Shown: piece by piece, positions 42,266 through 61,519 of the stretch
Position numbering within the stretch: position 1 is the first letter of the stretch
How the letters are laid out: the number at the start of each line of letters is the position of its first letter
Origin: an uncultured Bacteroidota bacterium
GTDB lineage: Bacteria; Bacteroidota; Bacteroidia; Bacteroidales; JAAUTT01
Length of the DNA stretch: 64,000 nt
Direction of reading: 5' to 3'
NCBI GenBank assembly: GCA_963766305.1
Contig: CAVYAE010000078.1
Span: 6,811 to 70,810, forward strand
Translations under genes and position numbers: made by a program
Notes under the pieces: generated by a model
What the model was told of the DNA's origin: nothing
The model's database searches: none
The model's input: only the letters and a program-made list of their open reading frames with translations

Positions 42266-42281
42266 CATCTGCCAACAACTG

Positions 42282-44228: not shown

Positions 44229-44251
44229 TTTGCAAATATTCCTCATCCACT

Positions 44252-46294: not shown

Positions 46295-46438
46295 AATTTT
46301 ATTTACATCAGGTTTTGATAAGTCATTTATAAATACACATTTATAAATTGCACTAAGTAGTTATGCACCATAAATTATAAGTATAAAATCCGATATAAAT
46401 TACGTTTTAATACTCTTTAAATCAGGGTTAATAAGTAA

Positions 46439-46446
46439 TATGTTTG
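46439..46446 (+). promoter_or_regulatory. Candidate -7 promoter box (TAnnTTTG) for the ABC/GTPase/NifS/Fe-S/LarE-like module
   Basis: 'TATGTTTG' lies 49 nt upstream of the ATG at 46495. Confidence 0.3.
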
Positions 46447-46494
46447 TATTAATATTTACTACAAAGGTAATCTAAATGTTTTAATACTAAATCC

Positions 46495-47280: not shown

Positions 47281-47331
47281 CAATTTAAAATATTGGTAAT
47301 AATATATACAAAATTAATCAATTATAAACAG

Positions 47332-48033
47332 ATGAAATTAGTAATTTTTGCCGGCCCGCCAACTTGTGGAAAAACAACTGTTATCCGTCAGGTAATAAAA
47401 AGAATAATTGCTAAAAACCTTAAACCGGCTTACATTAAAATAGATGTATTGTATGCTGATGAGGACCATACTTTGAAAAAGGAATTTGGTATCCCCACAA
47501 GAAAAATTTATTCGGGGGAGCTGTGTCCCGATCACTGCAATGTGGTTGTATTGGATGAAGCTGTCGAATGGGCTGAAAAAACAGGTTCTGATTATTTATT
47601 TGTCGAAACTGCGGGATTGTGTTTACGTTGTTCGCCTTATGTTGAGAACTCTCTGGGAATAGTAGTACTTGAAGCCACCAGCGGCATGAATCTGCCCCGC
47701 AAGATAGGGCCTATGCTAACCCTGGCTGATATTTCCGTAATTACTAAAATTGACCTCATCTCACAGGCTGAGCGCGAAGTGTTCCGTTACCGGGTTCTGG
47801 AATCGGCTAAAAACATTACTGTTGTGGAAAGCAATGCATTATATGGAATAGGTATTGACCCTATAGTAAAACACATACTAAAAACAGAAGATGTTGTTTT
47901 TCCTATGTACCTGCGTGGAAATCCTCCAGTGGGGACATGCACAATTTGTGTCGGGAAAAAGGAAATAGGAGCAAAAAACCATTTTGGTGTATTGAGGACC
48001 ATGGATCAGGAACTTTATTATGTTGGTGAATAA
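47332..48033 (+). CDS. P-loop GTPase of the G3E (HypB/UreG/CobW-like) type with C-terminal Cys motif
   Basis: 'FAGPPTCGKTT' P-loop, 'VETAGLCLRCSPY' (compare HypB 'ENVGNLVCP'), 'ITKIDL' (NKxD-like), C-terminal 'GTCTICVGKKE'. ATG at 47332 is preferred over TTG at 47293. Confidence 0.55.
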   Translation: MKLVIFAGPPTCGKTTVIRQVIKRIIAKNLKPAYIKIDVLYADEDHTLKKEFGIPTRKIYSGELCPDHCNVVVLDEAVEWAEKTGSDYLFVETAGLCLRCSPYVENSLGIVVLEATSGMNLPRKIGPMLTLADISVITKIDLISQAEREVFRYRVLESAKNITVVESNALYGIGIDPIVKHILKTEDVVFPMYLRGNPPVGTCTICVGKKEIGAKNHFGVLRTMDQELYYVGE

Positions 48034-48041
48034 CATTGAGC

Positions 48042-49202
48042 ATGGGAAAAACTGTATATTTTGATTACGCGGCAACTACCTGTGTTGATACGAGAGTATT
48101 GGAAACCATGCTACCCTGGTTTTCAACTTATTTTGGAAATGCGTCAAGTCTCCACCGGTCAGGTACTGAAGCAAGGGAAATACTGAACCATTCCAGGGCC
48201 CGGATTGCAAATTGCATAGGAGCCCAACCTGATGAAATTATATTTACATCCGGAGGAACAGAAGCTAATAACTTCGCATTAAAAGGTATTGCTTTCGCCA
48301 ATAAGACGAAAGGTAACCATATAATTGTTTCTTCCATTGAGCATGATTGCGTGCTTAACTCGTGTAAATGGCTTGAAGAACAGGGATTCTATGTTTCCTA
48401 CCTACCGGTTGACAGCGCCGGATTGATTGATATCGAATATTTAAAAAGAATAATAAACAACAAAACCATTCTGGTTTCAATTATGTTCGCTAACAATGAA
48501 ATAGGTACCATAGAACCGATAGAAGACATAGGTAAAATATGCCGGCAAAATGAGGTTTATTTTCATTCTGATGCCTGCCAGAGCTTTGGCAAGATTCCAA
48601 TAGATGTTAATAAAATGAATATTGATTTGCTTACTATAAATTCTCATAAAATTTATGGACCAAAAGGTGTTGGTGCGCTATACATCCGTAAGGGTACCAA
48701 TATCACACCTCTTTTACACGGAGGAGGGCAGGAAGGAGGCCAACGTTCCTCAACAGAAAATATTCCCGGTGTAGTGGGGTTTGCCAAGGCTGCTGAACTA
48801 TGTTTGTCTGAAATGAATGATGAATATGAAAGGCTTACTCACCTAAGACAAAAACTAACATACTTCCTGCTAAATACTTATGAAGGTGTTTACATAAACG
48901 GGCATACAGAGAAACGTTTACCTGGTCATCTTAGTTTTAGTTTGCATGGTATGGAAGGCGAAACTATCCGGTTGTTACTATTGCTTGATGAGATGGGTAT
49001 TGCCGTTTCTGCAGGTTCGGCGTGTTCCTCAAATCATGGTAACAGCGCTTCTCATGTTTTACAGGCAATAGGCTTAAACCCTTTTGAAGCCAGAGGAGCC
49101 ATCAGGGTAAGTTTTGGCAGGTATACCACAGAAAAAGACATAGATCTGTTAACCAATGCTCTTAGTACTACTATTATGCAATTAAATTCAATATTTTCTT
49201 AA
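48042..49202 (+). CDS. Cysteine desulfurase, NifS/IscS (class I) family
   Basis: 'YFDYAATT', 'FTSGGTEANN', 'TINSHKIYGPKG' (PLP Lys), 'SAGSACSS' (active-site Cys loop). Confidence 0.9.
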   Translation: MGKTVYFDYAATTCVDTRVLETMLPWFSTYFGNASSLHRSGTEAREILNHSRARIANCIGAQPDEIIFTSGGTEANNFALKGIAFANKTKGNHIIVSSIEHDCVLNSCKWLEEQGFYVSYLPVDSAGLIDIEYLKRIINNKTILVSIMFANNEIGTIEPIEDIGKICRQNEVYFHSDACQSFGKIPIDVNKMNIDLLTINSHKIYGPKGVGALYIRKGTNITPLLHGGGQEGGQRSSTENIPGVVGFAKAAELCLSEMNDEYERLTHLRQKLTYFLLNTYEGVYINGHTEKRLPGHLSFSLHGMEGETIRLLLLLDEMGIAVSAGSACSSNHGNSASHVLQAIGLNPFEARGAIRVSFGRYTTEKDIDLLTNALSTTIMQLNSIFS

Positions 49203-49214
49203 AAAATTTAATAA

Positions 49215-49907
49215 ATGGAAACTTTAACATCGCCTAAAACCCCAACAAATGAATTGCTGCCAGGTCTTAATTGCGGAGCTTGTGGCTACAAAACCTGCAA
49301 TGAATTTGCAATTGCTGTTGATAACGCTGAAACTGAACTGAAAAAATGTATTCATGCCAAACAATTAGTAAAAGAGCCGGTTAAAATTAACAAATGCCGG
49401 ACATGCCTTGAGAGTGAAAACCTGGGAGATAAGCTAGGCTGGGTCGACAGCCTTAGCCGTGAGTTTGATTTTATCCTGGATGTCTTTGAAGGTGAACCGG
49501 GACCCAAAGAAACGATATTGCCGTATAACCCGTCTTTAGTTAGTGAATTAGGGGTGAAAAAAGGAGATGTCATGATTGGCCGTCCTATGGGTATGTCATG
49601 CGGATGCCCCGTCACCCATTGCGGAGTAGTGTCTGAGGTGGATGCACGTAACGGCGTTATTCACTGGAACGTAACCGGACCATTACGTCCCCGTATGGAA
49701 GGGTTTATAGATATAGGCTATTATGTTTCCCAGGCATATGAAGGAGTTATAAAAGAATCGAAAGAAGAAATAAAATTAGGCAGGCGTTACTGGTTTTTGC
49801 CCCGCAGGTGTATGTTACAGTGGAGGCACAGCGGATTGGTTAATGCAGTTACAAAAATGAAAGACAGCAGTTATAAAGTCCGCATAGAAGGGTTATTTAT
49901 AGGTTGA
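49215..49907 (+). CDS. Fe-S-binding protein (RnfB-type N-terminal 4Fe-4S domain + uncharacterised Cys-containing C-terminal domain)
   Basis: 'LPGLNCGACGYKTCNEFA...KKC' matches the CxxCx4C...C motif of the RnfB N-terminal Fe-S domain. A second cluster 'MSCGCPVTHCG' follows. The rest is unrecognised. Confidence 0.55.
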   Translation: METLTSPKTPTNELLPGLNCGACGYKTCNEFAIAVDNAETELKKCIHAKQLVKEPVKINKCRTCLESENLGDKLGWVDSLSREFDFILDVFEGEPGPKETILPYNPSLVSELGVKKGDVMIGRPMGMSCGCPVTHCGVVSEVDARNGVIHWNVTGPLRPRMEGFIDIGYYVSQAYEGVIKESKEEIKLGRRYWFLPRRCMLQWRHSGLVNAVTKMKDSSYKVRIEGLFIG

Positions 49908-49990
49908 ATTTCACTACATCCGGAAATTTATTATTTTAATATTAATTTAATCGTTAAATTAGCCAGAAAGATAATTTATACCGGACTTTA

Positions 49991-50806
49991 ATGAACATTG
50001 ACGATAAATATATATCCCTGATCAAATATATAAAATCAACACAAAGCCTGACAGTAGCTTTTTCAGGAGGAATTGACAGCGCTTTTCTTTTGTTTGCTGC
50101 CAGGGAGGCATTAGGCAAGAAGAATGTTTTAGCTGTTACGATAAAAACGCTTTATTTTCCTGAGAGGGATTTAAAGGACGCACTTGAATTCAGTAAAAAA
50201 CTTTCTGTAAAGCATCAGGTTATTGATCATATAGTACCCGATAATTTAAGGCCAAACCCTGTTGACAGATGTTACTACTGTAAAAAGTTTGAATTTTCTG
50301 TTATTATAAACAAGTCCAGAGAGTACAATATAAGCAATGTAGCTGCAGGATTAAATGCAGATGACCCCTCTGACTACAGACCAGGAATATCTGCCATGAA
50401 TGAACTTAACGTACTTTTCCCTTTACAGGAGGTTAACCTGAGTAAAAAAGAAATAAGGGAACTGGCAAGGAAATTTAACCTGAAACTATGGAATAAGCCC
50501 GCCAATGCTTGTATCCTTTCCCGTATCCCATATGGTGATTTTATTACCGATGAAACGATTAAACGTATACAGGAGGCAGAGATTATTCTGCAAAAAGAAG
50601 GATTTGTAAACCCACGTGTACGTACCTACGGTACTACTGCAAGTATCGAAGTTGAACAAAATGAAATAACCAGGTTTTCGGATGATGAGCTCACTTCCAG
50701 AGTTTATTCAGCTATAAAATTACTTGGATATGAAGCTATTACTATAGACAAAAAAGGTTATAGGACAGGAAGCCTTAATGAAGGGGTTGTAACGCCGGTA
50801 AAATAA
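49991..50806 (+). CDS. LarE-like PP-loop ATP pyrophosphatase / sulfur transferase (TIGR00268-like), three-Cys ([4Fe-4S]-type) variant
   Basis: PP-loop 'AFSGGIDSAF', 'DRCYYCKKFEF' (CxxC) and 'ANACILSRIPYG' (third Cys, at the position of the sacrificial Cys in L. plantarum LarE). Confidence 0.75.
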   Translation: MNIDDKYISLIKYIKSTQSLTVAFSGGIDSAFLLFAAREALGKKNVLAVTIKTLYFPERDLKDALEFSKKLSVKHQVIDHIVPDNLRPNPVDRCYYCKKFEFSVIINKSREYNISNVAAGLNADDPSDYRPGISAMNELNVLFPLQEVNLSKKEIRELARKFNLKLWNKPANACILSRIPYGDFITDETIKRIQEAEIILQKEGFVNPRVRTYGTTASIEVEQNEITRFSDDELTSRVYSAIKLLGYEAITIDKKGYRTGSLNEGVVTPVK

Positions 50807-51806: not shown

Positions 51807-52984
51807 ATGAATAAAAGTTTTGGATCGCAACTGATTCACTTGGGAGAAACGAACCCGGAATCGATATCAAAGCCAAAATCCTTACCTATTTCGTTGACTT
51901 CAGTTTATGTTTTTGATGATATGGAATCCCTGGATGAGATATATTCAGGAGAGTCTAAAGGTTTTATATACACCAGGAACGGGAACCCGGTTCATGATGC
52001 GTTGAAGGAAATTATGGTAAACATAGAAGAAGGTGAAGATGCTCAGGTATTTTCATCCGGAATGGCTGCTATTGTCCTGAGTATAATTTCTCAGGTAAAG
52101 GCAGGTGATCATATAATTGCTGCAAATGTGCTTTACGGGATCAGTTATTTGTTTCTAAAATCGGAACTTTCAAGATTTAATGTTGACGTCACTTTTGCTG
52201 ACGTTATAAATGAAGATATTACGCCTTATTTTAAACCCAATACAAAGCTGGTTTATGTTGAAACCATTTCAAACCCCCTAATGGAGGTTATTGATATAGC
52301 AACAATCGCCAAGGCAGCTCATGCCAATAATGCAAAACTGATAGTTGATAATACCTTTGCCACACCTGTTATTTGTCAGCCATTATTACTCGGAGCTGAT
52401 ATTGTTGTCTACAGTGCAACAAAATACCTAAGCGGTCACAGTGATGTAACAGCAGGAATAGTTGTTTCCAATCTGGAAACCATTAAAGATATTTATACAA
52501 AGGGAATACTTTACGGACCAACCTTGAGCCCTTTTGATTCCTGGCTTATCATCCGAAGTCTGAGAACCCTGGAGTTAAGGATTAAGCAGCATTCGGACAA
52601 TGCTTTAAAATTAGCAACTTACCTTCAAACCAGCCCTAAAATAAAAAAGGTATATTATCCTGGTTTACAATCATCGTCAAGTTACGGATTAGCCGGCAGG
52701 ATTTTCAATAACGGATTATATGGAGGTATGCTGAGTATCGATCTGACAGGGGGGAAAAAAGTGCATATGCATTATTACGGTTGCTGACCACAATTAAGTT
52801 GGTGCCAAGTCTTGCAGGTGTTTCAACTTCGACCTCTTACCCTGCAAAAATATCTCACAGGGCGTTGAATGACCAGGAGCTTGAAAAAGCAAACATCTCC
52901 AAAGGATTAATTCGTGTTTCAGTGGGTCTTGAAAATGCCGATGATATTATTGCTGAATTTGAACAGGCTTTAATTAACCTTTAA
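51807..52984 (+). pseudogene. Trans-sulfuration PLP enzyme (cystathionine gamma-synthase/lyase family), one frameshift at a G6A6 run
   Basis: 'YTRNGNPV', 'FSSGMAAI', 'YSATKYLSGHSDVTAGIVV' (PLP Lys). The C-terminal 'SLAGVSTSTSYPAKISHRAL...LIRVSVGLENADDII' is in another frame. Adding one base in GGGGGGAAAAAA (52749-52760) restores '...DLTGGKKSAYALLRLLTTIKLVPSLAGV...'. Confidence 0.8.
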
Positions 52985-53104
52985 AGGTATTTTTTTTAAA
53001 TAAGCCTTCTTAATATCATATCCCTTATTTTTTCCCATATTGTGTTTCGTTTTCTTCTGCTATTATAGGGCTTTTGTCCGCGAAAAAAAACGCCGTATAA
53101 CCTA

Positions 53105-53145
53105 ATACCTCAAATTAGGTATATAAGATACCAACAATGAGGGAT
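53105..53145. promoter_or_regulatory. Paired palindromic operator candidates upstream of cysK
   Basis: Perfect ATACC-tcaaatta-GGTAT at 53105-53122. ATACC-N8-GGGAT at 53128-53145 lies 23 bp away centre to centre. The pair sits 63-103 nt upstream of the cysK ATG. Confidence 0.6.
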
Positions 53146-53207
53146 TTTATTAATTTAAAATGTTCCTCACCTTTGAAAAATAATGTAATATTCAAATTAT
53201 TAAAATA

Positions 53208-54143
53208 ATGGCTGGTATTGCTAAAACATTGACCGACCTCATTGGGAACACTCCTTTAATGGAACTGGCAAATATTGAGAGAACCTTTAAATTACATGCC
53301 ACAGTTATTGCTAAACTGGAATTATATAATCCCGCAAGAAGTGTTAAGGACAGGATAGGTTTTGCGATGATAAAAGCAGGTGAAAACCAGGGTCTGATAA
53401 ATAAGAATACAACTATAATTGAACCAACAAGCGGTAACACGGGTATTGCTTTAGCTTTTGTTGCAGCAGCCAGAAATTACAAGCTTATACTTATAATGCC
53501 TGAAACCATGAGTATTGAGCGTCGGAACCTTTTGACTGCCCTGGGTGCACAGATAGTTTTAACACCGGGACATGAAGGTATGGGAGGTGCTGTGAGGAAG
53601 GCTGAAGAACTGCATGCCAAAACGCCAAATTCCTTTATCCCCCAGCAATTTAAAAACGCCGCTAATCCTGAAATTCACAGGACTACCACAGCAGAAGAAA
53701 TCTGGAACGATACAGATGGTGATATTGATATTTTTGTTTCAGGCGTTGGCACAGGAGGTACCATTACAGGAGTGGGTGAGGTCCTTAAAAAAAGAAAGCC
53801 CGACATAAAAATTGTGGCGGTGGAACCTTTCGACTCCCCTGTTTTATCGGAAGGCCGACCAGGACCACATAAAATACAGGGTATAGGTGCCGGATTTGTG
53901 CCTGAAGTATTAAACAGGAATGTTATAGATGAAATCATTAAGGTCAAAAATGATGAAGCATTTCAGACAGGAAGGGACCTGGCACGTTTTGAAGGGCTCC
54001 TGGTAGGAATATCTTCCGGAGCTGCCGTTTATGCAGCTGTTCATTTAGCAAAACGTCAGGAGAATAAAGGGAAAAAAATAGTTGTAGTTGTTCCGGATAC
54101 AGGGGAAAGATATATATCTACTTTATTGTATAATAAGGAATAA
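53208..54143 (+). CDS. cysK: Cysteine synthase A (O-acetylserine sulfhydrylase)
   Basis: '[10 protein letters not shown]', '[11 protein letters not shown]' (PLP Lys), '[12 protein letters not shown]', '[10 protein letters not shown]', 'GISSGAA'. Confidence 0.95.
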
Positions 54144-54374
54144 AGGGACTAAATCTCAGGAAGAAATAACTACATAATAGTAATCAACACCTGACATAAA
54201 AATTCAGATAAAAATTAACTCCGTATGCAAAACAGTCAGAAAAATAAATTACACCGTGCTCAAAATATTCAGTATAATGATTAACTCTTGACAAAAAACT
54301 TTCACCATAATAATAAACTTCAGACATCAAATCTTCAGAATAGTAATTAAAACAAAACATAATAAGACAATCAT

Positions 54375-55058
54375 ATGCAAATTAAAGTAAATGGTAAAGA
54401 ACAGAAAATTGAACAGAACCCTTTATTATTGCTCGATCTGATCAAACAAAATAATGTCAGGCAACCTGATATGGTATCCGTTCAGCTTAATGGAAATTTT
54501 GTCCAAAGGGGAGATTTTGACAATACTGCAATAAAAGAAGGGGATGAGGTTGAATTCCTTTACTTTATGGGTGGAGGTCAAGGCGATAGGAAAAAATTGT
54601 CTATTATAAGTTTTAGTGGAGATTTTGATAAACTTGTAGCCGCGTTTACCTTGGCTACCGGCTCAGCTGCAGTCGGATTGGATGTATTTATATTTTTTAC
54701 TTTCTGGGGTTTAAATGTTATTAAAAAGGAACGCGGAAGAAAAGCCTTAGGTAAGGGGTTTCTTGCCAAATTCTTTGTATTTCTGCAGGGAGGAAGGAAT
54801 AATTTACCTTTAAGCAGATTAAATTTTGGCGGCATAAGTCCCAAACTAATGACACATATGATGCGCCAGAGGAATGTTGCTACACTTGATGAACTTATTG
54901 ATGCGGCTATTGCTCTTGATGTTAAACTTTATGCATGCGAAATGTCCGGGGTAATTCTCGGTTTGGACAAGGATACTTATATCCCTGAAGTAAAAGAGGT
55001 AATAGGAGTGGCTAAATTCCTTGAGCTCTCTGAAGGCGGCGACAGGATTTTCATTTAA
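54375..55058 (+). CDS. Fusion protein: ThiS/MoaD-type sulfur carrier (residues 1-68, ending ...FMGGG) + DsrE/DsrF/DrsH-like domain
   Basis: N-terminus 'MQIKVNGKEQKIE...VQLNGNFVQRGDFDNTAIKEGDEVEFLYFMGGG' is a complete ThiS ending in the Gly-Gly(-Gly) terminus. The remainder, 'KLSIISFSGDFDKLVAAFTLATGSAAVGLDVFIFFTFWGLNVI...LYACEMSGVILGL', matches the COG2210/DrsE_2 family, including the conserved Cys. Confidence 0.75.
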   Translation: MQIKVNGKEQKIEQNPLLLLDLIKQNNVRQPDMVSVQLNGNFVQRGDFDNTAIKEGDEVEFLYFMGGGQGDRKKLSIISFSGDFDKLVAAFTLATGSAAVGLDVFIFFTFWGLNVIKKERGRKALGKGFLAKFFVFLQGGRNNLPLSRLNFGGISPKLMTHMMRQRNVATLDELIDAAIALDVKLYACEMSGVILGLDKDTYIPEVKEVIGVAKFLELSEGGDRIFI

Positions 55059-55083
55059 TAGTTTAAATTATATATAAATATTT

Positions 55084-56520
55084 ATGTCTGAAGATTTTAC
55101 AACACGAAGCGTAACTACAGTCATTGCCCGCAACCTGGCGAATACAACCAAGACGGTTCCTCAAATGGGGTCTATAACCCCAAGGTATTTACTTAAACTG
55201 CTGCCATGGGTGCATGTGGCATCCGGTACATACAGGGTCAACAGGACTAAAGTTGAGCTTAAGAAAGCCGACCGTATTGAAATAGATTACAGGGAAGGTT
55301 CAGCTTCATTTCAGTCCGAAGCTTTAAAAAGCATACCACTGTTTTCATCACTCGAAGAGGATATCCTTGAACGAATTGCAACACGCTTTACCACAGAAGA
55401 AGCAGATCTGGGAAGCAACCTTATTCTTGAAGGCGAAGACAGGCATAAGTTTTTTATAATTGCACACGGTCAGGTGGAGGTCTTAAGTAAGGGACTCCAC
55501 GGGGAAGAACTCAGGATTGCACTTTTATCGGAAGGGGAATATTTCGGTGAGGAAGATTTTATCACAGACAGGCCATCAGACGTTACAGTAAGGGCAATAA
55601 CCCATGGGGTATTTCTAACCTTATCTGGAAAGGATCTGGAGGCAATTTTCAGTGAAATCCCAAATTCACGCAAGAAATTTGAAAAAGCCAGGGAAGATTA
55701 TGCTAGATTAAGATCTTCGGTGAACAAACACGGAGAACGACATATAGACCTGGTATCAGGTTTAGAGGAAGACCATGTAATACCTGAAACTTATGTGGAT
55801 TATGCAGTAAAACCCAAGGAATATTCACTAAATGCTATTCAAACCATTGTGAGGGTCCATACCAGAGTATCCGACCTTTACAACGATCCCCACAACCAGC
55901 TGGAACAACAAATGCGGCTGACCATTGAAGGCATGAAAGAAAAGCAGGAATGGGAACTAATTAATAACAAGGAATTTGGATTGTTACATGCTGTAGATCC
56001 CAGCCAGCGAATAAGCACACGTTATGGAGCACCTACCCCTGACGATCTGGATGAGTTACTTGCTCTCGTTTGGAAAAAACCAGCTTTCTTTTTGGCACAT
56101 CCCAAAGCTATAGCTGCTTTTGAACGTGAGTGTACCTGGAGAGGAGTACCGCCGGTTACTATTCAGCTATTTGGAAGTCCTATAGTAACATGGAGGGGTG
56201 TTCCATTAATCCCGAATGACAAGCTTGAAGTAAGGGGACATTTATCCAGCCGTGGTCTTGGTACTACCAATATATTACTTATAAGGGTAGGAGAGGATGA
56301 GCAGGGGGTAGTGGGTCTGCACCAGGCAGGAATTCCGGGGGAAATTTCTCCCAGCCTTTCTGCACGTCTGATGGGATTGGACCGCCTGGGTGTTGCTTCT
56401 TACCTGTTAACCCAGTATTTTTCATTGGCCGTACTTACGGATGATGCATTGGCAGTTCTTGAAAATGTAGAAGTGGGATATTATCACGATTATCAGCACA
56501 GAATTCCAAAAGTAAAATGA
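55084..56520 (+). CDS. Family 2B encapsulin nanocompartment shell protein (HK97 fold with inserted cNMP-binding domain)
   Basis: 'ARNLANTTKTVPQMGSITPRYLLKLLPW', 'IPETYVDYAVKPKEYSLNAIQTIVRVHTRVSDLYN', 'YGAPTPDDLDELLALVWKKPAFFLAHPKAIAAFERECTWRGVPP', 'WRGVPLIP' and 'LAVLTDDALAVLENVEV' match my memory of SrpI-type Family 2 shells. Residues ~85-200 ('IPLFSSL...FGEEDF...RPSDVTVRA') form a CRP-like cNMP-binding domain. Confidence 0.85.
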   Translation: MSEDFTTRSVTTVIARNLANTTKTVPQMGSITPRYLLKLLPWVHVASGTYRVNRTKVELKKADRIEIDYREGSASFQSEALKSIPLFSSLEEDILERIATRFTTEEADLGSNLILEGEDRHKFFIIAHGQVEVLSKGLHGEELRIALLSEGEYFGEEDFITDRPSDVTVRAITHGVFLTLSGKDLEAIFSEIPNSRKKFEKAREDYARLRSSVNKHGERHIDLVSGLEEDHVIPETYVDYAVKPKEYSLNAIQTIVRVHTRVSDLYNDPHNQLEQQMRLTIEGMKEKQEWELINNKEFGLLHAVDPSQRISTRYGAPTPDDLDELLALVWKKPAFFLAHPKAIAAFERECTWRGVPPVTIQLFGSPIVTWRGVPLIPNDKLEVRGHLSSRGLGTTNILLIRVGEDEQGVVGLHQAGIPGEISPSLSARLMGLDRLGVASYLLTQYFSLAVLTDDALAVLENVEVGYYHDYQHRIPKVK

Positions 56521-56553
56521 TTATACAAATACACAAAATATACAAAATAATAT

Positions 56554-58299
56554 ATGTCAGAAAACAATGCAACTTTTGAACCACCTATTGGTGATGAATT
56601 ATTGAATCCTGCAATAATTGCCCAAATAGCAAGCAGAATTTATAATGAAATACCTGGTGTTTCAGGAATACCTGTTAATCTTGCTGAGGCTTCAAAAACA
56701 CCCTCGGAGTACAGTGATCCCGGAGAGTTGTTGAATTATAATACCTCAATTGATGAACCGGCTATTGCTGATTTTAGTTTTTTAAAGAATATATTGGGCC
56801 TGGAATCAGGTGCTGGTTGCATAGCTAAAGTATTAAGAGTAGAAAATACAAAACAAAGTGATTTTTCAGGGAAATTGCTGGGAGGATATATACCTGATTA
56901 TTACTTTCTTAAAAACAGTAATATTCAGGAAGATAAACAATTATTAGAGCATACGGATAACCTGGTAAATCAGCAAACCCTGACGGGAGACACTGCCGGA
57001 GCATCCAGTTTGAAACAATATGTTCAAAAGGTTCGGTCAGTAAATGGTGGCTTCTCAGAGAAAAGCCGGGATAATTCAATTTTTGATGTTAACCGTATCA
57101 GGAAGGATTTTCCCGTTCTTAACCAGTATGTGCACGGGAAGCCTTTAATATGGTTTGATAATGCAGCAACGACACAAAAACCCGGAAGTGTAATAGATTC
57201 CTTGTCCAGGTTTTACAGTCATGATAATTCAAACATACACCGGGGAGCACATTCCCTGGCAGCGAGGGCTACTGATGGCTATGAAGGTACAAGGGAGAAT
57301 GTAAGGCGTTTTCTGGGAGCGGGGTCCGTGTCTGAAATTGTATTTGTAAGGGGAACCACAGAAGCTATTAATCTGGTAGCTCAGACCTGGGGAAGGAAAA
57401 ACATTCTTCCTGGTGATGAGATACTTGTTACTATACTGGAACATCATGCAAATATTGTACCCTGGCAAATGCTGGCAAAGGAAAAAGGGGCAATCCTCCG
57501 TCCCATACCTGTAAATGACAGGGGTGAGATTTTACTTGATGATTACAGCAGGTTGCTTACGCCGCATACAAAATTGGTAGCTCTTACACATGCTTCGAAC
57601 AGCATTGGTACCATTTTGCCTGTTAAGGAAATGATACAGCTCGCCAAACGATATGATACAAAGGTATTGGTAGACGGAGCACAGTCTGTGGCTCACATAC
57701 CTGTCAACGTCCAGGACCTGGATGCTGATTTCTTCGTATTTTCAGGCCATAAAATATTTGCTCCTACCGGTATAGGTATTTTGTTCGGTAAAAAGGAAAT
57801 ATTGGAAAATATGCCTCCATGGCAGGGTGGGGGAAATATGATTAAGGATGTCACCTTCGGAGAAACTATTTTTAATAAAGTACCGGATAAATTTGAAGCA
57901 GGTACACCAAGTATTGGTGACGCAATAGGTTTAGGCGCTGCACTGGATTATGTAAATAAAGTTGGTCTGCATAATATTGCCGCTTACGAGCACAAACTTA
58001 CTGATTATGCAACCGGGCTGTTAAGGCAAATTCCAGGGGTAAGACTTATAGGCTTACCTGGAGAAAAAGTAGGAGTTATATCTTTAGTATTAAACAATAT
58101 TAATAGTGAACAGGCAGGCCGGTACCTCGACCAGGAAGGGATTGCCCTGCGTACGGGACATCATTGTGCTCAGCCAGCCCTGAGAAGGTTTGGAGTAGAA
58201 AGTACCATAAGACCTTCATTTTCATTTTATAATACCTTTGATGAGATTGACTGTTTTGTTGCAGCCATTAAGAAAATTGCCCAGGGGAAATTACTATAA
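56554..58299 (+). CDS. SufS/CsdA-type (class II) cysteine desulfurase with ~175-aa N-terminal extension; predicted encapsulin cargo
   Basis: The core starts at 'IRKDFPVLNQYVHGKPLIWFDNAATTQKP' and includes 'HRGAHSLA', 'FSGHKIFAPTGIG' (PLP Lys) and 'RTGHHCAQP' (active-site Cys). The N-terminal ~175 aa are low-complexity and contain 'LNPAIIAQIASRIYNEIPG', reminiscent of the cargo-loading motif of Family 2 desulfurases. Confidence 0.85.
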   Translation: MSENNATFEPPIGDELLNPAIIAQIASRIYNEIPGVSGIPVNLAEASKTPSEYSDPGELLNYNTSIDEPAIADFSFLKNILGLESGAGCIAKVLRVENTKQSDFSGKLLGGYIPDYYFLKNSNIQEDKQLLEHTDNLVNQQTLTGDTAGASSLKQYVQKVRSVNGGFSEKSRDNSIFDVNRIRKDFPVLNQYVHGKPLIWFDNAATTQKPGSVIDSLSRFYSHDNSNIHRGAHSLAARATDGYEGTRENVRRFLGAGSVSEIVFVRGTTEAINLVAQTWGRKNILPGDEILVTILEHHANIVPWQMLAKEKGAILRPIPVNDRGEILLDDYSRLLTPHTKLVALTHASNSIGTILPVKEMIQLAKRYDTKVLVDGAQSVAHIPVNVQDLDADFFVFSGHKIFAPTGIGILFGKKEILENMPPWQGGGNMIKDVTFGETIFNKVPDKFEAGTPSIGDAIGLGAALDYVNKVGLHNIAAYEHKLTDYATGLLRQIPGVRLIGLPGEKVGVISLVLNNINSEQAGRYLDQEGIALRTGHHCAQPALRRFGVESTIRPSFSFYNTFDEIDCFVAAIKKIAQGKLL

Positions 58300-58336
58300 A
58301 GGAACATGTTACCTAATTAGTTTTTGTTTTGTAAAT

Positions 58337-58364
58337 CCCGGTGTTTGCGAAAATCCCGGGTTTT
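58337..58364. terminator. Possible terminator hairpin between the convergent desulfurase and JAMM genes
   Basis: CCCGG-(14 nt)-CCGGG followed by TTTT. The stem is only 5 bp. Confidence 0.35.
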
Positions 58365-58445
58365 ACATTTTATCCTTTTTTAATCAATATTGCACAGTAT
58401 TTATCATCAATCATTATAAAGATGATGAAATGTGTCTGGTAATAA

Positions 58446-58844
58446 TTAATTTATAATCTTGATCTCTTCATTCAAAGCGATGCCATTGACAATGCGAAAT
58501 GACTTTACCACCGGTTCTTTTTCTGCAAGGGAAATAATTATATAGCTGATATCCGGATCATAGGCAAGACGTATGTCTTCCTGTGAAGGTCGTGAAGGAG
58601 TTGATGGATGGCTGTGGTAATTTGCAATAATATTTAAGCCTTTATTACGGGCTTCTTTTACAGTTTTAAACTGTTCTGACGGATCGAATGAAAAATGTTC
58701 AGGGCTATGGTCAGTATTAGTAAGCTCATAGGCCGTTGTTATAACACCGTCCTCTCCCGCAAGATAACCACATGCTTCATCCGGCAGGTCTTTTTTAGCA
58801 TGTGCTATAATCTGATCTAATATACCACTTGATATTGAAATCAT
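58446..58844 (-). CDS. JAMM/MPN+ metalloprotease (Mec+/HcyD/QbsD-like)
   Basis: 'EACGYL' and 'HSHPSTPSRPSQED' (E...HxH...S..D JAMM motif). The start overlaps the TusA-like stop by 4 nt. Confidence 0.85.
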   Translation of the reverse strand: MISISSGILDQIIAHAKKDLPDEACGYLAGEDGVITTAYELTNTDHSPEHFSFDPSEQFKTVKEARNKGLNIIANYHSHPSTPSRPSQEDIRLAYDPDISYIIISLAEKEPVVKSFRIVNGIALNEEIKIIN

Positions 58845-59065
58845 TTTTCAATAGTTATTTTGTGTACAGAATCTTTCACATGCTGAATATTCAAAACCTT
58901 ATATCCCTGTTCAGTGGCGCTCTTAGGCACATTCTCCAATGGCTCACCTTCTGTAAGTAAAACTTCAAGGATATCTCCATTATTAAGTTTTGACAATTCA
59001 ATTTTAGTTTTTACAAATGTCATCGGACAATGTTCTTTTGTAATATCAAGTTGTTTAGTTGCCAT
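58841..59065 (-). CDS. TusA/SirA-family sulfurtransferase
   Basis: 74 aa. 'LDITKEHCPMTFVKTKIELSKL..GDILEVL' carries the conserved Cys, in CPMT rather than the canonical CPxP. Confidence 0.7.
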   Translation of the reverse strand: MATKQLDITKEHCPMTFVKTKIELSKLNNGDILEVLLTEGEPLENVPKSATEQGYKVLNIQHVKDSVHKITIEK

Positions 59066-59080
59066 AATATTTAAGTTTCA

Positions 59081-59911
59081 TTATTTATGATGTTCATTTT
59101 CTGTAATCGGCGGTGTTTCGCAAACTGGCAGGTCATAGGTTTGTAATTCAGTTATCGTAGGATGTTCACCGCAGATGGGGCATTGTTTGTTTCTGTTAAA
59201 TGTTATATTACGAAATTCCATGGATAATGCATTAAATGTCAGCAAACGGTTTGTCAACAGTTCACCCGTTCCTGTAAAATACTTCAGCACTTCGGTAGCT
59301 TGTATAGTTCCGAGCATCCCTGCAATCGATCCCAATACTCCTGCCTGCGAACATGTAGGCACAGCATCGGGTGGTGGCGGACTGTTGAAGGCACACCTGT
59401 AACAAGCGTTGTCAGGAGTATGGGTAAATGTTTGTCCTTCAAAACGAAGGATACCTCCATGTGAGAATGGTTTACCCGATATTACACAAGCATCATTAAT
59501 CAGGAATTTTGTAGGAAAGTTGTCTGTACCATCAATTACAAAATCGTAGTTTTTTATAATATCAAATATATTATAGGATGACAGTAAATCCTGGTAAGCA
59601 ATTACATATACATCCGGGTTGAGCTTATTTATTTTTTCTTTTGCGGAGTTCACCTTTGGTTTATTGACGTCTTCGGTATAATGTATGACCTGTCTCTGGA
59701 GGTTGGTCAGATCAACTACATCGGCATCTATTATTCCAATTGTCCCCACACCTGCTGCAGCAAGGTAAAGAGCAGCAGGTGAACCAAGTCCGCCTGCCCC
59801 GACTATGAGTACCTTACCTTCCATAATTTTTTGCTGTCCTTCAACACCCACATTCTGAAGGATTATATGCCTGCTGTAACGTTCAATTTGGGAATCTGTA
59901 AATTCTATCAT
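59081..59911 (-). CDS. ThiF/MoeB/HesA-family E1-like adenylyltransferase (HcyF/MoeZ-like, no rhodanese domain)
   Basis: 'RYSRHIIL..VG.EGQQKI....VLIVGAGGLGSPAALYLAAAGVG', 'DLTNLQRQ', and the Zn motifs 'CYRC' and 'CPICG'. Confidence 0.9.
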   Translation of the reverse strand: MIEFTDSQIERYSRHIILQNVGVEGQQKIMEGKVLIVGAGGLGSPAALYLAAAGVGTIGIIDADVVDLTNLQRQVIHYTEDVNKPKVNSAKEKINKLNPDVYVIAYQDLLSSYNIFDIIKNYDFVIDGTDNFPTKFLINDACVISGKPFSHGGILRFEGQTFTHTPDNACYRCAFNSPPPPDAVPTCSQAGVLGSIAGMLGTIQATEVLKYFTGTGELLTNRLLTFNALSMEFRNITFNRNKQCPICGEHPTITELQTYDLPVCETPPITENEHHK

Positions 59912-59984
59912 AAAGATACCTTGTCCTTCTTAATTGTTTTAAATAATCAGCCATAATTAAATGGTAATCCGTGTACGTCATCGT

Positions 59985-60040
59985 TAATCAGTTATCAATC
60001 ATCTGTCGTCCATAATCAGTCGTCAATCATCTGTCCTCAG
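59985..60040. repeat. 28-bp tandem repeat x2 in the metY - E1 spacer
   Basis: TAATCAGTTATCAATCATCTGTCGTCCA / TAATCAGTCGTCAATCATCTGTCCTCAG. The second copy overlaps the metY stop codon (60037-60039). Confidence 0.85.
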
Positions 60041-61269
60041 ACTAAAGCTGATTCAATATCTGTTAATAAATCATTAATATCTTCTATTCCTGCTGATAAT
60101 CTCAATAATGTATCCGGTACTCCTATTTTCTGGCGTGTTTCGAAACCAAAATCACAATATATTGTCGAAGCAGGATGAATAATTACTGATTTGTTATCGT
60201 AAATATTTGTTGCACGCCGGATTAATTTCAGATTATTAATAAAATCAAAACTTTCCTGCTTTGTTTCGAAATTTATTGTAAGCATGGCTCCAGGGTATTT
60301 ACCAAACTGCTTAAGGCCGATATTGTAAAATGGTGAGCCGGGTAAACCCGGATAATTCACATTTTTTATGCCTGGTTTATCCAGAAGATATTCAGCTATG
60401 GACAGACAATTACTTACCGATTTGTCAAAACGAAGTGCAAGGGATTCAAGCCCCACACTCTGAAGGTAAGCATTGAATGGTGACAGGCAGGCACCTAAGT
60501 TTCTTTGTATTTCTCTTCTAAGCTTGACTTTTAGTACCCAGGGTCCGAATTTAGAAGATAAATTGGAAAGCTTTTTGTTGTACGACCAATCATAAGTGCC
60601 ATAGTCTACTATAATCCCTCCGACTGAGGTAGCCCCTCCTGAAATTATTTTAGTACTGGATATTACTTCAATATTTATACCAAAATCTGAAGCCCGGAAT
60701 ATATTAGGCGGAGTAAGGGTGGTATCGGCAATTAATAATAAATGATGCTCTTTGGCAACCCCTGATAAAGGGCTAATATCAGCAATTTCAAGTTGAGGAT
60801 TTGTAATGGTTTCAATATATATTGCCACGGTATCCCCATCTATATTTTGTTGTACTTCTTCAATATTGTTTAAGTCACAAAACCTGACTTCAACACCAAA
60901 AGGTTCCAGAGTAGATGTAAAAAAGGAATAAGTGTTCCCAAACAGGTGCCTCGAGGCAATTATATTGCTGCCAGCCTGGCATATGGCTAAAAATATATTC
61001 GAAATGGCAGCCATGCCTGAGCCTAGTGCAGAAACAGCTATGCCTCCTGTAACCGATAATATCCGTCTTTCGAGGTTTTCTACTGTAGGGTTTGAAATAC
61101 GGGTATAGATATGGTCAGGATGATGCCCAAGAAATGCCTCTTCCATGTATTCAGCAGATTCAAATTCAAAGGCAGCATTGCTGTATATTGGCATTTGAAG
61201 TGCATTGTGAGCATCGTTTCTGGCATAGCCGGTATGAATTATTTTAGTAGAAAACCCTTCCAGTTCCAT
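60037..61269 (-). CDS. metY: O-acetylhomoserine sulfhydrylase-like PLP enzyme (MetY family)
   Basis: 'YTRISNPTV', 'LGSGMAAI', 'SSTKIISGGATSVGGIIVDYGTYDWS' (PLP Lys and the OAHS-type insertion), C-terminal 'LLRLSAGIEDINDLLTDIESAL'. Confidence 0.8.
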   Translation of the reverse strand: MELEGFSTKIIHTGYARNDAHNALQMPIYSNAAFEFESAEYMEEAFLGHHPDHIYTRISNPTVENLERRILSVTGGIAVSALGSGMAAISNIFLAICQAGSNIIASRHLFGNTYSFFTSTLEPFGVEVRFCDLNNIEEVQQNIDGDTVAIYIETITNPQLEIADISPLSGVAKEHHLLLIADTTLTPPNIFRASDFGINIEVISSTKIISGGATSVGGIIVDYGTYDWSYNKKLSNLSSKFGPWVLKVKLRREIQRNLGACLSPFNAYLQSVGLESLALRFDKSVSNCLSIAEYLLDKPGIKNVNYPGLPGSPFYNIGLKQFGKYPGAMLTINFETKQESFDFINNLKLIRRATNIYDNKSVIIHPASTIYCDFGFETRQKIGVPDTLLRLSAGIEDINDLLTDIESALV

Positions 61270-61319
61270 CCTTCCATTTTTGTTAACTGCAAAGATGCAA
61301 CCATATGGTTTTACTTTAA

Positions 61320-61360
61320 ATACCTATGATTTGGTATATTTCGTACCGTTATTTAGGTAT
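61320..61360. promoter_or_regulatory. Paired palindromic operator candidates upstream of metY
   Basis: Perfect ATACC-tatgattt-GGTAT at 61320-61337. GTACC-gttattta-GGTAT at 61343-61360 lies 23 bp away centre to centre. The pair sits 51-91 nt upstream of the metY ATG (61269, minus strand). Confidence 0.6.
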
Positions 61361-61519
61361 AAGGATTGATTTTGATATATCGTAGCTGATTGGTTATTGT
61401 AAACTGTACGCGATTGATTATGATATGTTGACCTTAATTTATTTATTGTATTGTAAACAATATCTTCAAGATGATTGATTAACCATGTTTAAGAATTCTG
61501 TCAAAGTATCACTTTTCAC

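What the first reader, a model, noticed from the sequence alone, without database searches (positions are those of the whole stretch)
54375..55058. ThiS-type sulfur carrier translationally fused, through its Gly-Gly terminus, to a DsrE-like domain
**Seen in sequence.**
- Residues 1-68 are a full ThiS/MoaD beta-grasp ending '...EVEFLYFMGGG'.
- They are followed directly by 'QGDRKKLSIISFSGDFDKL...FFTFWGL...LYACEMSG...', a DsrE/DsrF/DrsH-like (COG2210) domain that retains the conserved Cys.

**Established knowledge.**
- Sulfur carriers need a free C-terminal Gly-Gly for adenylation.
- Carriers with C-terminal extensions (HcyS, QbsE, some MoaD fusions) are matured by a JAMM protease.
- DsrE-type proteins carry persulfides in TusA/DsrE relays.

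**Inference.**
- The JAMM protein encoded opposite (58446-58844) would cleave after GG(G). That would release stoichiometric amounts of carrier and of its putative persulfide donor.
- Alternatively, the fusion could act as an intramolecular sulfur relay before cleavage.
- I do not know of a described ThiS-DsrE fusion.
Basis: partly seen in the sequence, partly recalled or inferred. Interest (0 to 1): 0.8.

Follow-up and report, generated by a model that had tools for sequence, protein, structure and literature searches.

The report
Sulfur-carrier protein fused to DsrE sulfurtransferase
One gene in a Bacteroidales sulfur-assimilation cluster joins a small ThiS/HcyS-type sulfur carrier, through its Gly-Gly-Gly tail, to a DsrE-type sulfur-transfer domain; it is most likely a precursor that a neighbouring JAMM protease cuts in two, and it links DsrE2-like proteins and a sulfur-storing encapsulin to cysteine and methionine synthesis.

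Summary
ORF 54375-55058 (+, 227 aa) is an uninterrupted ThiS domain (residues 3-68, ending FMGGG), a 3-4 residue linker, and a DrsE_2 domain (72-220) that keeps the family's cysteine (Cys188).

It is not an assembly artefact. About 36 protein clusters and 16 independent contigs carry the same fusion, all from Bacteroidales/Marinilabiliales.

Sister lineages encode the two parts separately within the same ThiS-ThiF-DsrE-TusA-JAMM module. Nearly every unfused carrier of this subfamily (all 79 in one sample, 118 of 120 in another) has 1-25 extra residues after GGG, and a JAMM gene usually lies nearby. The DsrE domain is therefore best read as an unusually long C-terminal propeptide.

Precedents exist: MoaX and the Deinococcus MoaD-MoaE fusion are cleaved after Gly-Gly, the latter by a JAMM protease.

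The likely role is thiocarboxylate-dependent cysteine/homocysteine synthesis of the HcyS/CysO type, with TusA and DsrE as the persulfide relay. The cluster's ThiF has no rhodanese domain. Cleavage and sulfur transfer are inferred, not shown.

The fusion usually sits directly upstream of a family 2B encapsulin and its cysteine desulfurase cargo. The encapsulin papers I read do not mention this link.

Verdict: new variant of a known kind, moderate interest.

The parts
54375..54578 (+). ThiS/HcyS-type beta-grasp sulfur-carrier domain, residues 1-68, ending FMGGG (Gly codons 54570-54578)
   Evidence: Pfam ThiS 3-68 and NCBIfam thiS above cut-off. Foldseek match to ThiS 3cwi, TM 0.87. FMGGG is invariant in all fused copies.
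54579..54590 (+). Linker QGDR, residues 69-72; predicted JAMM cleavage site lies at its start (GGG|Q)
   Evidence: pLDDT is below 50 for residues 64-69. The linker shows a 2-residue indel and free variation among fused copies, apart from Q69. Unfused Bacteroidales ThiS end GGGQ* or GGGQVYV*.
54591..55058 (+). DsrE2B-like (DrsE_2) sulfurtransferase domain, residues 73-227 plus stop; active-site candidate Cys188 at 54936-54938
   Evidence: Pfam DrsE_2 E 5.7e-41. PDB 3pnx E 9e-24 and 2qs7. Foldseek TM 0.81 and 0.75. Cys188 is invariant in 46 sequences.
53208..54143 (+). Cysteine synthase (CysK-type PLP enzyme), candidate user of the carrier thiocarboxylate
   Evidence: NCBIfam cysK TIGR01139 468 bits, above cut-off. 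It lies upstream of the fusion in most fused loci.
55084..56520 (+). Family 2B encapsulin shell protein with cNMP-binding insertion; starts 25 bp after the fusion's stop codon
   Evidence: NCBIfam encap_f2b 582 bits (cut-off 400); Pfam SrpI-like plus cNMP_binding.
56554..58299 (+). SufS-type cysteine desulfurase with an N-terminal extension of about 180 aa (encapsulin cargo type)
   Evidence: Pfam Aminotran_5 at 199-567. NCBIfam f2_encap_cargo1 760 bits, just below its 800 cut-off. sufS subfamily above cut-off.
58446..58844 (-). JAMM/MPN+ metalloprotease (HcyD/Mec+-like), proposed to cut the fusion after GGG and to release Cys/Hcy from the carrier
   Evidence: Prok-JAB E 5e-28. Glu23 and H77SHx7Sx2D are intact. 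Related to PDB 2kks and to P. furiosus JAMM1 5ld9.
58841..59065 (-). TusA-family sulfur carrier (single Cys13, motif CPMT)
   Evidence: Pfam TusA E 3e-21; sequence read.
59081..59911 (-). ThiF/MoeB-type E1 adenylyltransferase without a rhodanese domain
   Evidence: Pfam reports ThiF only, 12-245 of 276 aa. GAGGLG, two CxxC pairs and Cys187 are present.
60037..61269 (-). O-acetylhomoserine sulfhydrylase-like PLP enzyme (MetY-type)
   Evidence: Pfam Cys_Met_Meta_PP E 9e-96. Best NCBIfam match is OAH_OAS_sulfhy, below its cut-off.

Best explanation
The gene encodes a precursor polyprotein. An HcyS/CysO-type sulfur carrier (residues 1-68, 7.7 kDa) is made with a DsrE2B-like sulfurtransferase (residues 69-227, 17.5 kDa) as its C-terminal extension.

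Proposed steps, all inferred:
1. The cluster's JAMM metalloprotease cuts after Gly68. This exposes the carrier's C-terminal glycine and frees the DsrE protein, which probably forms trimers like its relatives.
2. ThiF adenylates the carrier.
3. Because this ThiF has no rhodanese domain, sulfur arrives as a persulfide on TusA and/or DsrE Cys188. Its source is a cysteine desulfurase or the encapsulin's sulfur store. The product is the carrier thiocarboxylate.
4. CysK and MetY use the thiocarboxylate to make carrier-bound cysteine and homocysteine.
5. JAMM releases the amino acids, as in the M. tuberculosis CysO/Mec+ and W. succinogenes HcyS/HcyD pathways.

Shown here: the architecture, its conservation, the gene neighbourhood, and the family-wide C-terminal extensions. 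Inferred: cleavage, the direction of sulfur flow, and the end products.
For: **Architecture and folds.**

**Fusion recurrence.** It recurs in about 36 clusters and 16 contigs and is under purifying selection in both halves.

**Unfused orthologues sit in one module.**
- ThiS-ThiF-DsrE-TusA-JAMM in L001-L004.
- ThiS-MetY-ThiF-DsrE-TusA-JAMM in L091, L104, L105 and L109.
- CysK-ThiS-ThiF-DsrE-TusA-JAMM-Enc2B-CD in L013, L014 and L016.

**Fused loci.** They lack separate ThiS and DsrE genes but keep ThiF, TusA and JAMM.

**C-terminal extensions.**
- All 79 unfused carriers in the genome loci have 1-25 residues after GGG.
- 118 of the 120 nearest database homologues also have an extension.
- Of the 79 genome loci with a ThiS homologue, 70 have JAMM and 73 have ThiF within the fetched flank.

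**Linker and protease.** The linker 64-69 is predicted disordered. The JAMM motif is intact.

**No rhodanese on ThiF.** Pfam finds only the ThiF domain in the 276-aa protein.

**Other N-terminal partners of this DsrE domain are sulfur-relay proteins.**
- TusA-DsrE fusions.
- Rhodanese-TusA-DsrE in Lachnospiraceae.

**Precedents.**
- MoaX is cleaved between G82 and S83, and cleavage is required for activity (PMC4326299).
- DRJAMM cleaves MoaD-MoaE, and HvJAMM1 cleaves linear SAMP1 fusions (PMC8832034).
- Thiocarboxylate-dependent Cys and Met synthesis is cited in PMC6225789 and PMC5764234.
- The HcyS-Ala/HcyD/HcyF/MetY details come from my memory of Krishnamoorthy & Begley 2011, which I could not open.

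**Wider window.** It also holds sulfite reductase CysJI, siroheme synthesis genes, a NifS-like desulfurase and LarE. No thiamin or molybdopterin genes were seen among the ORFs I scanned.
Against: - No experiment or proteomic evidence for cleavage was available.
- Characterised DsrE2B from M. cuprina did not react with any sulfur compound tested, and the role of DsrE2 is called unclear (PMC4175335, PMC11094781). A donor role for the DsrE part is therefore a guess.
- In W. succinogenes the sulfur source for HcyS was free bisulfide from sulfite reductase (my memory of the 2011 paper). This window also encodes CysJI, so a persulfide relay may not be needed.
- Using a cysteine desulfurase to make cysteine would be a futile cycle. 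The route only makes sense for homocysteine, or for drawing on stored sulfur.
- The TusA here has CPMT instead of the canonical CPxP motif.
- JAMM and ThiF were not found within 10 kb of the fusion in L008.
- The model's inter-domain geometry is not confident (pTM 0.59).
Confidence: 0.62

Rival explanations
1. The protein is cleaved as proposed, but the DsrE part does not feed sulfur to the carrier. It would serve the adjacent encapsulin/desulfurase system (loading or mobilising stored sulfur, or detoxifying persulfide), or accept sulfur downstream of the thiocarboxylate. On this reading the fusion only ensures co-expression.
For: - The fusion lies directly upstream of Enc2B-CD in 8 loci with enough downstream DNA: the window, L005, L008, L011, L093, L096, L098 and L100.
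- Only 14 of 79 ThiS-module genome loci contain a DsrE gene, so the carrier pathway works without it in most lineages.
- W. succinogenes HcyS uses bisulfide (own knowledge).
Against: - DsrE also occurs inside ThiS-ThiF-DsrE-TusA-JAMM operons that have no encapsulin nearby (L001-L004, L091, L104-L105, L109-L111).
- Fused operons without an encapsulin exist (L006/L007; the P0025 locus).
Confidence: 0.2
2. The fusion is not cleaved. The ThiS-like domain would be a non-activatable beta-grasp adaptor that docks the DsrE domain onto ThiF, CysK/MetY or the encapsulin, while another ThiS encoded elsewhere is the true carrier.
For: - Beta-grasp domains do serve as adaptors in other proteins (general knowledge).
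- I could not examine the whole genome for a second carrier gene.
- JAMM has a second possible job, releasing Cys/Hcy from the carrier, that would explain its presence.
Against: - No other ThiS homologue exists in the 64-kb window or in the flanks of any fused locus.
- GGG is strictly kept at the junction with synonymous codon changes.
- The ThiS domain is 58-75% identical to stand-alone carriers of the same modules.
- The junction sits exactly where those carriers are extended and presumably processed.
Confidence: 0.1
3. It is an ordinary thiamin-pathway ThiS that happens to be fused to an unrelated DsrE protein. Database names ('thiamine biosynthesis protein ThiS') would then be right.
For: - The NCBIfam thiS equivalog model is passed.
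- JGI names the homologues ThiS.
Against: - No ThiG, ThiH, ThiC or ThiE was found among the window ORFs scanned.
- The neighbours are CysK, MetY, JAMM, TusA, sulfite reductase and desulfurases.
- Related loci have ThiS next to MetY or CysK in 52 and 24 of 79 cases.
- Thiamin ThiS proteins end at GG and need no JAMM (established knowledge).
Confidence: 0.04
4. The fusion is a sequencing or assembly artefact, or a decaying pseudogene formed by loss of a stop codon.
For: The window does contain one apparent frameshift in a nearby gene (51807-52787 and 52781-52984).
Against: - The same 225-227 aa product occurs in about 36 clusters from JGI, ENA, NCBI and Logan assemblies.
- It occurs on 16 contigs with three operon layouts.
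- dN is far below dS in both halves.
Confidence: 0.02

Closest known systems
MoaD-MoaE fusions: M. tuberculosis MoaX, and D. radiodurans DR2607 cleaved by DRJAMM (PMC4326299, PMC8832034)
   Same: A ThiS/MoaD-family carrier sits N-terminal to a pathway partner and is joined through its Gly-Gly. Cleavage after the last Gly is required for activity. A stand-alone JAMM/MPN+ protease does the cutting in Deinococcus.
   Different: The carrier here belongs to the HcyS/CysO-like amino-acid branch, not the molybdopterin branch. The fused partner is a DsrE-fold persulfide carrier (a presumed sulfur donor) rather than the enzyme that consumes the thiocarboxylate. Cleavage here is untested.
HcyS-Ala/HcyD/HcyF/MetY of Wolinella succinogenes and CysO/Mec+/MoeZ/CysM of M. 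tuberculosis (cited in PMC6225789 and PMC5764234; details from own knowledge)
   Same: The gene set matches: a ThiS-like carrier with residues after the Gly-Gly, a JAMM protease, an E1, MetY and/or cysteine synthase, and sulfite reductase nearby. The same module occurs in 79 related genome loci.
   Different: The extension is 159 residues forming a folded, conserved domain, instead of one alanine. TusA and DsrE are added. ThiF lacks the rhodanese domain that MoeZ carries. An encapsulated cysteine desulfurase lies in the operon.
DsrE2B / DrsE_2 proteins (S. solfataricus SSO1126, PDB 2qs7; S. wolfei Swol_2425, PDB 3pnx; M. cuprina DsrE2B, PMC4175335)
   Same: Same fold, same single conserved cysteine, and the same genetic pairing with TusA.
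   Different: There is no Dsr or sHdr sulfur-oxidation system nearby. The NCBIfam DsrE2 equivalog score is 66 bits against a 210 cut-off. The context is assimilatory, not dissimilatory.
TusA-DsrE and rhodanese-TusA-DsrE fusion proteins
   Same: The same DrsE_2 domain takes a sulfur-relay partner on its N-terminal side.
   Different: Those partners carry persulfides on cysteine and need no cleavage. ThiS carries sulfur on its C-terminal carboxylate, so this fusion has to be cut to work.
Family 2 cysteine-desulfurase encapsulins (S. elongatus SrpI, A. baumannii; PMC8049743, PMC10836720, PMC8346489)
   Same: The downstream shell gene and the SufS-type cargo with a long N-terminal extension.
   Different: The accessory genes named in those papers are serine acetyltransferase and rhodanese. 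Here, and in Lachnospiraceae, the accessory set is ThiS/ThiF/JAMM/TusA with or without DsrE.

Membership tests
ThiS/MoaD sulfur-carrier family (PF02597, TIGR01683) | Beta-grasp fold of about 65-70 residues | tested here: met
   Pfam 3-68 and NCBIfam thiS above cut-off. Foldseek matches 3cwi (TM 0.87) and 1zud ThiS (0.85).
ThiS/MoaD sulfur-carrier family (PF02597, TIGR01683) | Gly-Gly at the C-terminal end of the domain | tested here: met
   FMGGG at residues 64-68, invariant in all fused and unfused relatives.
ThiS/MoaD sulfur-carrier family (PF02597, TIGR01683) | Free C-terminal carboxylate available for adenylation | tested here: not met
   The primary translation product continues for 159 residues after Gly68. 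The feature can be met only after proteolysis, which cannot be tested with these tools.
ThiS/MoaD sulfur-carrier family (PF02597, TIGR01683) | Cognate E1-type adenylyltransferase | tested here: met
   ThiF gene at 59081-59911, with the ATP loop and Zn-binding cysteines.
JAMM-processed precursor carriers (HcyS, CysO, QbsE type) | Extra residues after the terminal Gly-Gly in the gene product | tested here: met
   The extension here is 159 residues. Relatives carry 1-25 residues in all 79 unfused genome-locus carriers and in 118 of 120 database homologues.
JAMM-processed precursor carriers (HcyS, CysO, QbsE type) | JAMM/MPN+ protease with an intact metal site encoded in the cluster | tested here: met
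   Gene at 58446-58844: Prok-JAB, Glu23 and HSHx7Sx2D. JAMM is present in 70 of 79 related genome loci.
JAMM-processed precursor carriers (HcyS, CysO, QbsE type) | PLP enzyme that uses the thiocarboxylate (MetY or CysM/CysK) in the cluster | tested here: met
   CysK at 53208-54143 and a MetY-like gene at 60037-61269. Whether they accept a thiocarboxylate was not tested.
JAMM-processed precursor carriers (HcyS, CysO, QbsE type) | Demonstrated cleavage after Gly-Gly and thiocarboxylate formation | not testable with these tools
   This needs protein expression and mass spectrometry.
DsrE2 sulfur carriers of dissimilatory sulfur oxidation (NF047629; Liu et al. 2014 grouping) | DsrE fold with the conserved active-site cysteine | tested here: met
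   PF13686 E 5.7e-41. 3pnx and 2qs7 match by sequence and by fold. Cys188 aligns with their cysteine.
DsrE2 sulfur carriers of dissimilatory sulfur oxidation (NF047629; Liu et al. 2014 grouping) | Score above the NCBIfam equivalog cut-off | tested here: not met
   66 bits against a cut-off of 210.
DsrE2 sulfur carriers of dissimilatory sulfur oxidation (NF047629; Liu et al. 2014 grouping) | Genetic linkage to Dsr or sHdr systems (PMC4175335) | tested here: not met
   No dsr or hdr genes were found among the window ORFs scanned or in related loci. The neighbours are assimilatory.
Carrier-partner fusions cleaved by JAMM (MoaX / DR MoaD-MoaE type) | Carrier N-terminal, Gly-Gly at the junction, folded partner C-terminal | tested here: met
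Carrier-partner fusions cleaved by JAMM (MoaX / DR MoaD-MoaE type) | The partner is the MoaE subunit of molybdopterin synthase | tested here: not met
   The partner is DrsE_2, with no MoaE match. The gene is therefore an analogue of this class, not a member.

The most novel reading that the evidence does not exclude
In anaerobic Bacteroidales and Lachnospiraceae, the ThiS/ThiF/JAMM/TusA(/DsrE) module would be the physiological outlet of the cysteine-desulfurase encapsulin. Sulfur released or stored by the encapsulated desulfurase would pass as persulfide through TusA and the DsrE2-like protein onto a ubiquitin-like carrier thiocarboxylate, and from there into homocysteine and cysteine. The ThiS-DsrE fusion would then be the 'Rosetta stone' that pins DsrE2-like proteins, whose function is still called unclear, to thiocarboxylate formation.
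Probability: 0.3. Interest if true: 0.75.

Novelty: new variant of a known kind. Interest (0 to 1): 0.55.

Why it matters
- **A candidate job for DsrE2-like proteins.** Their role is described as unclear in the sulfur-oxidation literature (PMC11094781, PMC4175335). A natural fusion to a ThiS-type carrier, set against separate genes in the same operon elsewhere, is a classic gene-fusion argument for a direct functional partnership. It points to a testable role: donating persulfide for protein thiocarboxylate formation when the E1 has no rhodanese domain.
- **A wider range of JAMM substrates in bacteria.** The known cases run from one- or two-residue tails and MoaD-MoaE fusions. This would add a new carrier-partner pair.
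- **A clue to an open question about encapsulins.** How sulfur leaves a desulfurase encapsulin, and where it goes, is not settled. Here the fusion, and in other lineages the unfused module, sits in the same operon as a family 2B desulfurase encapsulin. That suggests a concrete acceptor pathway that can be reconstituted in vitro.
- **An annotation fix.** These proteins are currently labelled 'thiamine biosynthesis protein ThiS'.

Tried and rejected
- **Rfam scan of the whole window:** no riboswitch or other RNA family at gathering threshold.
- **Sigma-70 promoter and terminator scan of 52900-61600:** counts were no higher than in shuffles, and the method is unsuitable for Bacteroidota promoters, so operon limits rest on gene spacing only.
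- **Search of 1.84 billion representative proteins with the full fusion:** none of the best 150 hits covers the ThiS part, so I found no independent ThiS-DsrE fusion in other lineages. The fused clade itself is hidden behind unfused representatives. Longer hits checked by Pfam were TusA-DsrE or carried unannotated N-termini.
- **L026 (Omnitrophota):** a tblastn match to residues 1-132 looked like a second fusion. It is ThiS (ending GGGR) overlapping the start of MetY.
- **NJ tree of DsrE domains:** fused forms fall into three groups interleaved with unfused ones, each group with its own operon layout. Without support values I cannot tell whether this reflects repeated fusion, fission, recombination or poor resolution.
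- **Literature:**
  - Combinations of thiocarboxylate/DsrE/TusA, DsrE2/ThiS/ThiF and PF13686/DrsE_2/DsrE3 returned nothing relevant.
  - Two early searches were spoiled because 'ThiS' matches the word 'this' and 'HcyS' matches homocysteine abbreviations.
  - The key W. succinogenes paper could not be opened by DOI or by PMC id, so its content is cited from memory.
- **dN/dS:** dS is saturated at about 2, so the ratios are only qualitative.
Full report
**1. What is there**

ORF 54375-55058 on the + strand is one uninterrupted 227-codon frame.
- Pfam finds ThiS (PF02597) at residues 3-68 and DrsE_2 (PF13686) at residues 72-220 (E 5.7e-41). NCBIfam's thiS equivalog model is passed.
- The junction reads ...EVEFLYFMGGG-QGDR-KKLSIISFSGDFDKL.
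- The protein has a single cysteine, Cys188, in YACEMS. It aligns with the cysteine of the two closest solved DsrE-family structures, 3pnx and 2qs7. It is invariant in an alignment of 46 fused and unfused homologues.
- An AlphaFold2 model (mean pLDDT 79.8) has two well-folded halves. They match DsrE-fold structures (3pnx TM 0.81, 2qs7 0.75) and ThiS structures (3cwi TM 0.87).
- Residues 64-69 (FMGGGQ) have pLDDT below 50 and pTM is 0.59. The tail and linker are therefore predicted to be flexible, and no fixed inter-domain packing is predicted.

**2. It is real and conserved, but phylogenetically narrow**

- A search of 5.8 billion proteins returned about 36 clusters with the same architecture. 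They are 225-227 aa long and 70-100% identical. The next hits are stand-alone DrsE_2 proteins of about 160 aa, up to 79% identical to the DsrE half.
- Scans of genome and metagenome contigs gave 16 contigs with the fusion. The named ones are Bacteroidales and a Breznakibacter (Marinilabiliales) MAG.
- The window itself has 36% G+C and type IX secretion genes, so it is from Bacteroidota.
- A search of 1.84 billion representatives found no ThiS-DsrE fusion outside this group among its best 150 hits.
- Across 12 fused genes the three Gly codons change synonymously while GGG-Q never changes. The linker shows a two-residue indel. dN is far below dS in both halves: about 0.14 for ThiS and 0.02 for DsrE, with dS saturated.

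**3. The comparative context explains it**

In sister lineages the two halves are separate genes within one module:
- ThiS-ThiF-DsrE-TusA-JAMM beside MetY and a sulfite reductase-TusA fusion (L001-L004).
- ThiS-MetY-ThiF-DsrE-TusA-JAMM (L091, L104, L105, L109).
- CysK-ThiS-ThiF-DsrE-TusA-JAMM-encapsulin-desulfurase in Muribaculum, Bacteroidaceae and Parabacteroides MAGs (L013, L014, L016).

Fused loci never have a separate ThiS or DsrE gene nearby, but they keep ThiF, TusA and JAMM. The 64-kb window has no second ThiS or DsrE.

The unfused carriers of this subfamily are not made with a free Gly-Gly end.
- In the genome loci, all 79 unfused carriers have 1-25 extra residues after GGG (R, Q, AF, SY, KYLFF and others). 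The scan pattern fixed the EVEFLYFM motif but not the tail.
- In an independent sample of the 120 closest database homologues, 118 have such a tail.
- JAMM lies within the fetched flank in 70 of the 79 genome loci with a ThiS homologue, and ThiF in 73.

Removal of a C-terminal extension therefore looks like a general feature of the subfamily. The DsrE domain is simply the longest extension known for it.

**4. Mechanism proposed**

The JAMM protein encoded at 58446-58844 has Glu23 and an intact H77-S-H-x7-S-x2-D motif. It is related to P. furiosus JAMM1, which has been solved with its ubiquitin-like substrate.

I propose the following steps.
1. JAMM cuts after Gly68, giving a 7.7 kDa carrier and a 17.5 kDa DsrE protein (masses).
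2. ThiF (59081-59911) adenylates the carrier. This ThiF has no rhodanese domain, so a separate persulfide donor is needed unless free sulfide is used.
3. TusA (58841-59065) and DsrE Cys188 are the obvious candidate donors.
4. CysK (53208-54143) and the MetY-like enzyme (60037-61269) would consume the thiocarboxylate.
5. JAMM would release the amino acid, as in the CysO/Mec+ and HcyS/HcyD pathways. Those pathways are cited in PMC6225789 and PMC5764234. The details are from my memory of Krishnamoorthy & Begley 2011, which I could not open.

Elsewhere the same DsrE domain is fused at its N-terminus to TusA, or to rhodanese plus TusA. Its fusion partners are thus consistently sulfur-relay proteins.

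Steps 1-5 are inference. Only the gene content, motifs and conservation are shown.

**5. Precedents**

- M. tuberculosis MoaX, a MoaD-MoaE fusion, must be cleaved between Gly82 and Ser83 to work (PMC4326299).
- D. radiodurans DRJAMM cleaves its MoaD-MoaE fusion to expose the C-terminal Gly. HvJAMM1 cleaves linear SAMP1 fusions (PMC8832034).

The present gene is the same logic with a different carrier branch and a different partner.

**6. What weakens the story**

- DsrE2B from M. cuprina reacted with none of the sulfur compounds tested, and DsrE2 function is called unclear.
- This DsrE domain fails the NCBIfam DsrE2 equivalog cut-off (66 against 210 bits) and is not linked to Dsr or sHdr genes.
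- Only 14 of 79 related ThiS modules contain a DsrE gene, so it is an optional accessory.
- The window also encodes sulfite reductase CysJI and siroheme synthesis, so free sulfide could be the sulfur source.
- Making cysteine from desulfurase-derived sulfur would be a futile cycle. The route makes sense for homocysteine, or for drawing on stored sulfur.

**7. The encapsulin link**

The stop codon of the fusion is followed 25 bp later by a family 2B encapsulin (55084-56520). That is followed by a SufS-type desulfurase with a long N-terminal extension (56554-58299).
- The layout CysK-fusion-(TusA)-(SAT)-encapsulin-desulfurase recurs in L005, L008, L011, L093, L096, L098 and L100.
- Unfused ThiS/ThiF/JAMM/TusA modules flank encapsulin-desulfurase pairs in 25 of the 79 ThiS-containing genome loci, including many Lachnospiraceae.
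- The four encapsulin papers I read name serine acetyltransferase and rhodanese as accessory genes. None mentions ThiS, ThiF, TusA or DsrE.
- My sample is biased because it was seeded on this protein, so the strength of the association still needs an unbiased count.

**8. Verdict**

The interpretation, a JAMM-processed precursor that releases a carrier and a sulfurtransferase, is supported by comparative evidence and by precedent but is untested.

It is a new variant of a known kind: carrier-partner fusions and JAMM-matured sulfur carriers. I found no description of it in the literature I could search, and database entries label it only as ThiS.

Interest is moderate. The fusion is a useful functional clue for DsrE2-like proteins and for the fate of encapsulin sulfur, but it is not a new principle.

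Noticed in passing
window 55084-58299 with 53208-55058 and 58446-61269; loci L013, L014, L016, L021-L024, L051, L057, L059, L070-L088: A family 2B desulfurase encapsulin is embedded in a ThiS/ThiF/JAMM/TusA(/DsrE) plus CysK/MetY cluster. The same pairing recurs in Bacteroidales and in many Lachnospiraceae/Eubacterium MAGs (25 of the 79 ThiS-containing genome loci). The encapsulin papers I read list only serine acetyltransferase and rhodanese as accessory genes.
   Followed up: partly
window 51807-52787 and 52781-52984 (+): A methionine gamma-lyase/cystathionine synthase-like gene (Cys_Met_Meta_PP) is split into two overlapping frames. This is either a frameshift (pseudogene) or a sequencing error.
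   Followed up: no
L015 9338-10456, L021 9362-10477, L017 101-811: In Lachnospiraceae the DsrE domain of this module is fused to rhodanese plus TusA (about 370 aa, with a CPGP motif), or to TusA alone. These are different solutions to joining the relay partners.
   Followed up: partly
L050, L051, L072, L076, L087 (ORFs starting near 4566, 11042, 1185, 11138 and 11022): JAMM and TusA homologies fall in a single open reading frame. This suggests JAMM-TusA fusion proteins in some Lachnospiraceae/Eubacterium MAGs.
   Followed up: no
Proteins P0271-P0390; L001 6949-7170: The tails after GGG in unfused carriers are not random. SRC is the commonest (21 of 120) and several tails end in Cys. A few hydrophobic tails (KYLFF, SRTLIYI, SRALIYI, SARFTI) resemble the DsrE C-terminus GG(R/Q/D)TLFI. 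They could be vestiges of a fusion that lost the DsrE domain, or chance resemblance.
   Followed up: no
NJ tree of DsrE domains; P0022/P0025/P0028; L005/L011/P0035: Fused proteins fall into three groups interleaved with unfused DsrE proteins. Each group has its own operon layout, for example fusion-MetY-ThiF-TusA-JAMM-sulfite reductase for P0025. Repeated fusion, fission and recombination could not be told apart.
   Followed up: partly
window 39088-50806: A broader sulfur-assimilation island lies upstream. It holds HemB, a siroheme synthase/HemD fusion, sulfite reductase CysI and flavoprotein CysJ, an ABC ATPase, a CobW-like GTPase, a NifS-like desulfurase (48030-49199), a small Fe-S protein and a LarE-type PP-loop sulfur transferase (49991-50806).
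   Followed up: partly
window 58841-59065 (-): The TusA homologue has CPMT where TusA proteins normally have the CPxP active-site motif.
   Followed up: no
L001-L005 and the P0025 locus: A sulfite reductase of about 775 aa, with duplicated NIR_SIR modules and a C-terminal TusA domain, accompanies the ThiS module in several Bacteroidales loci.
   Followed up: no
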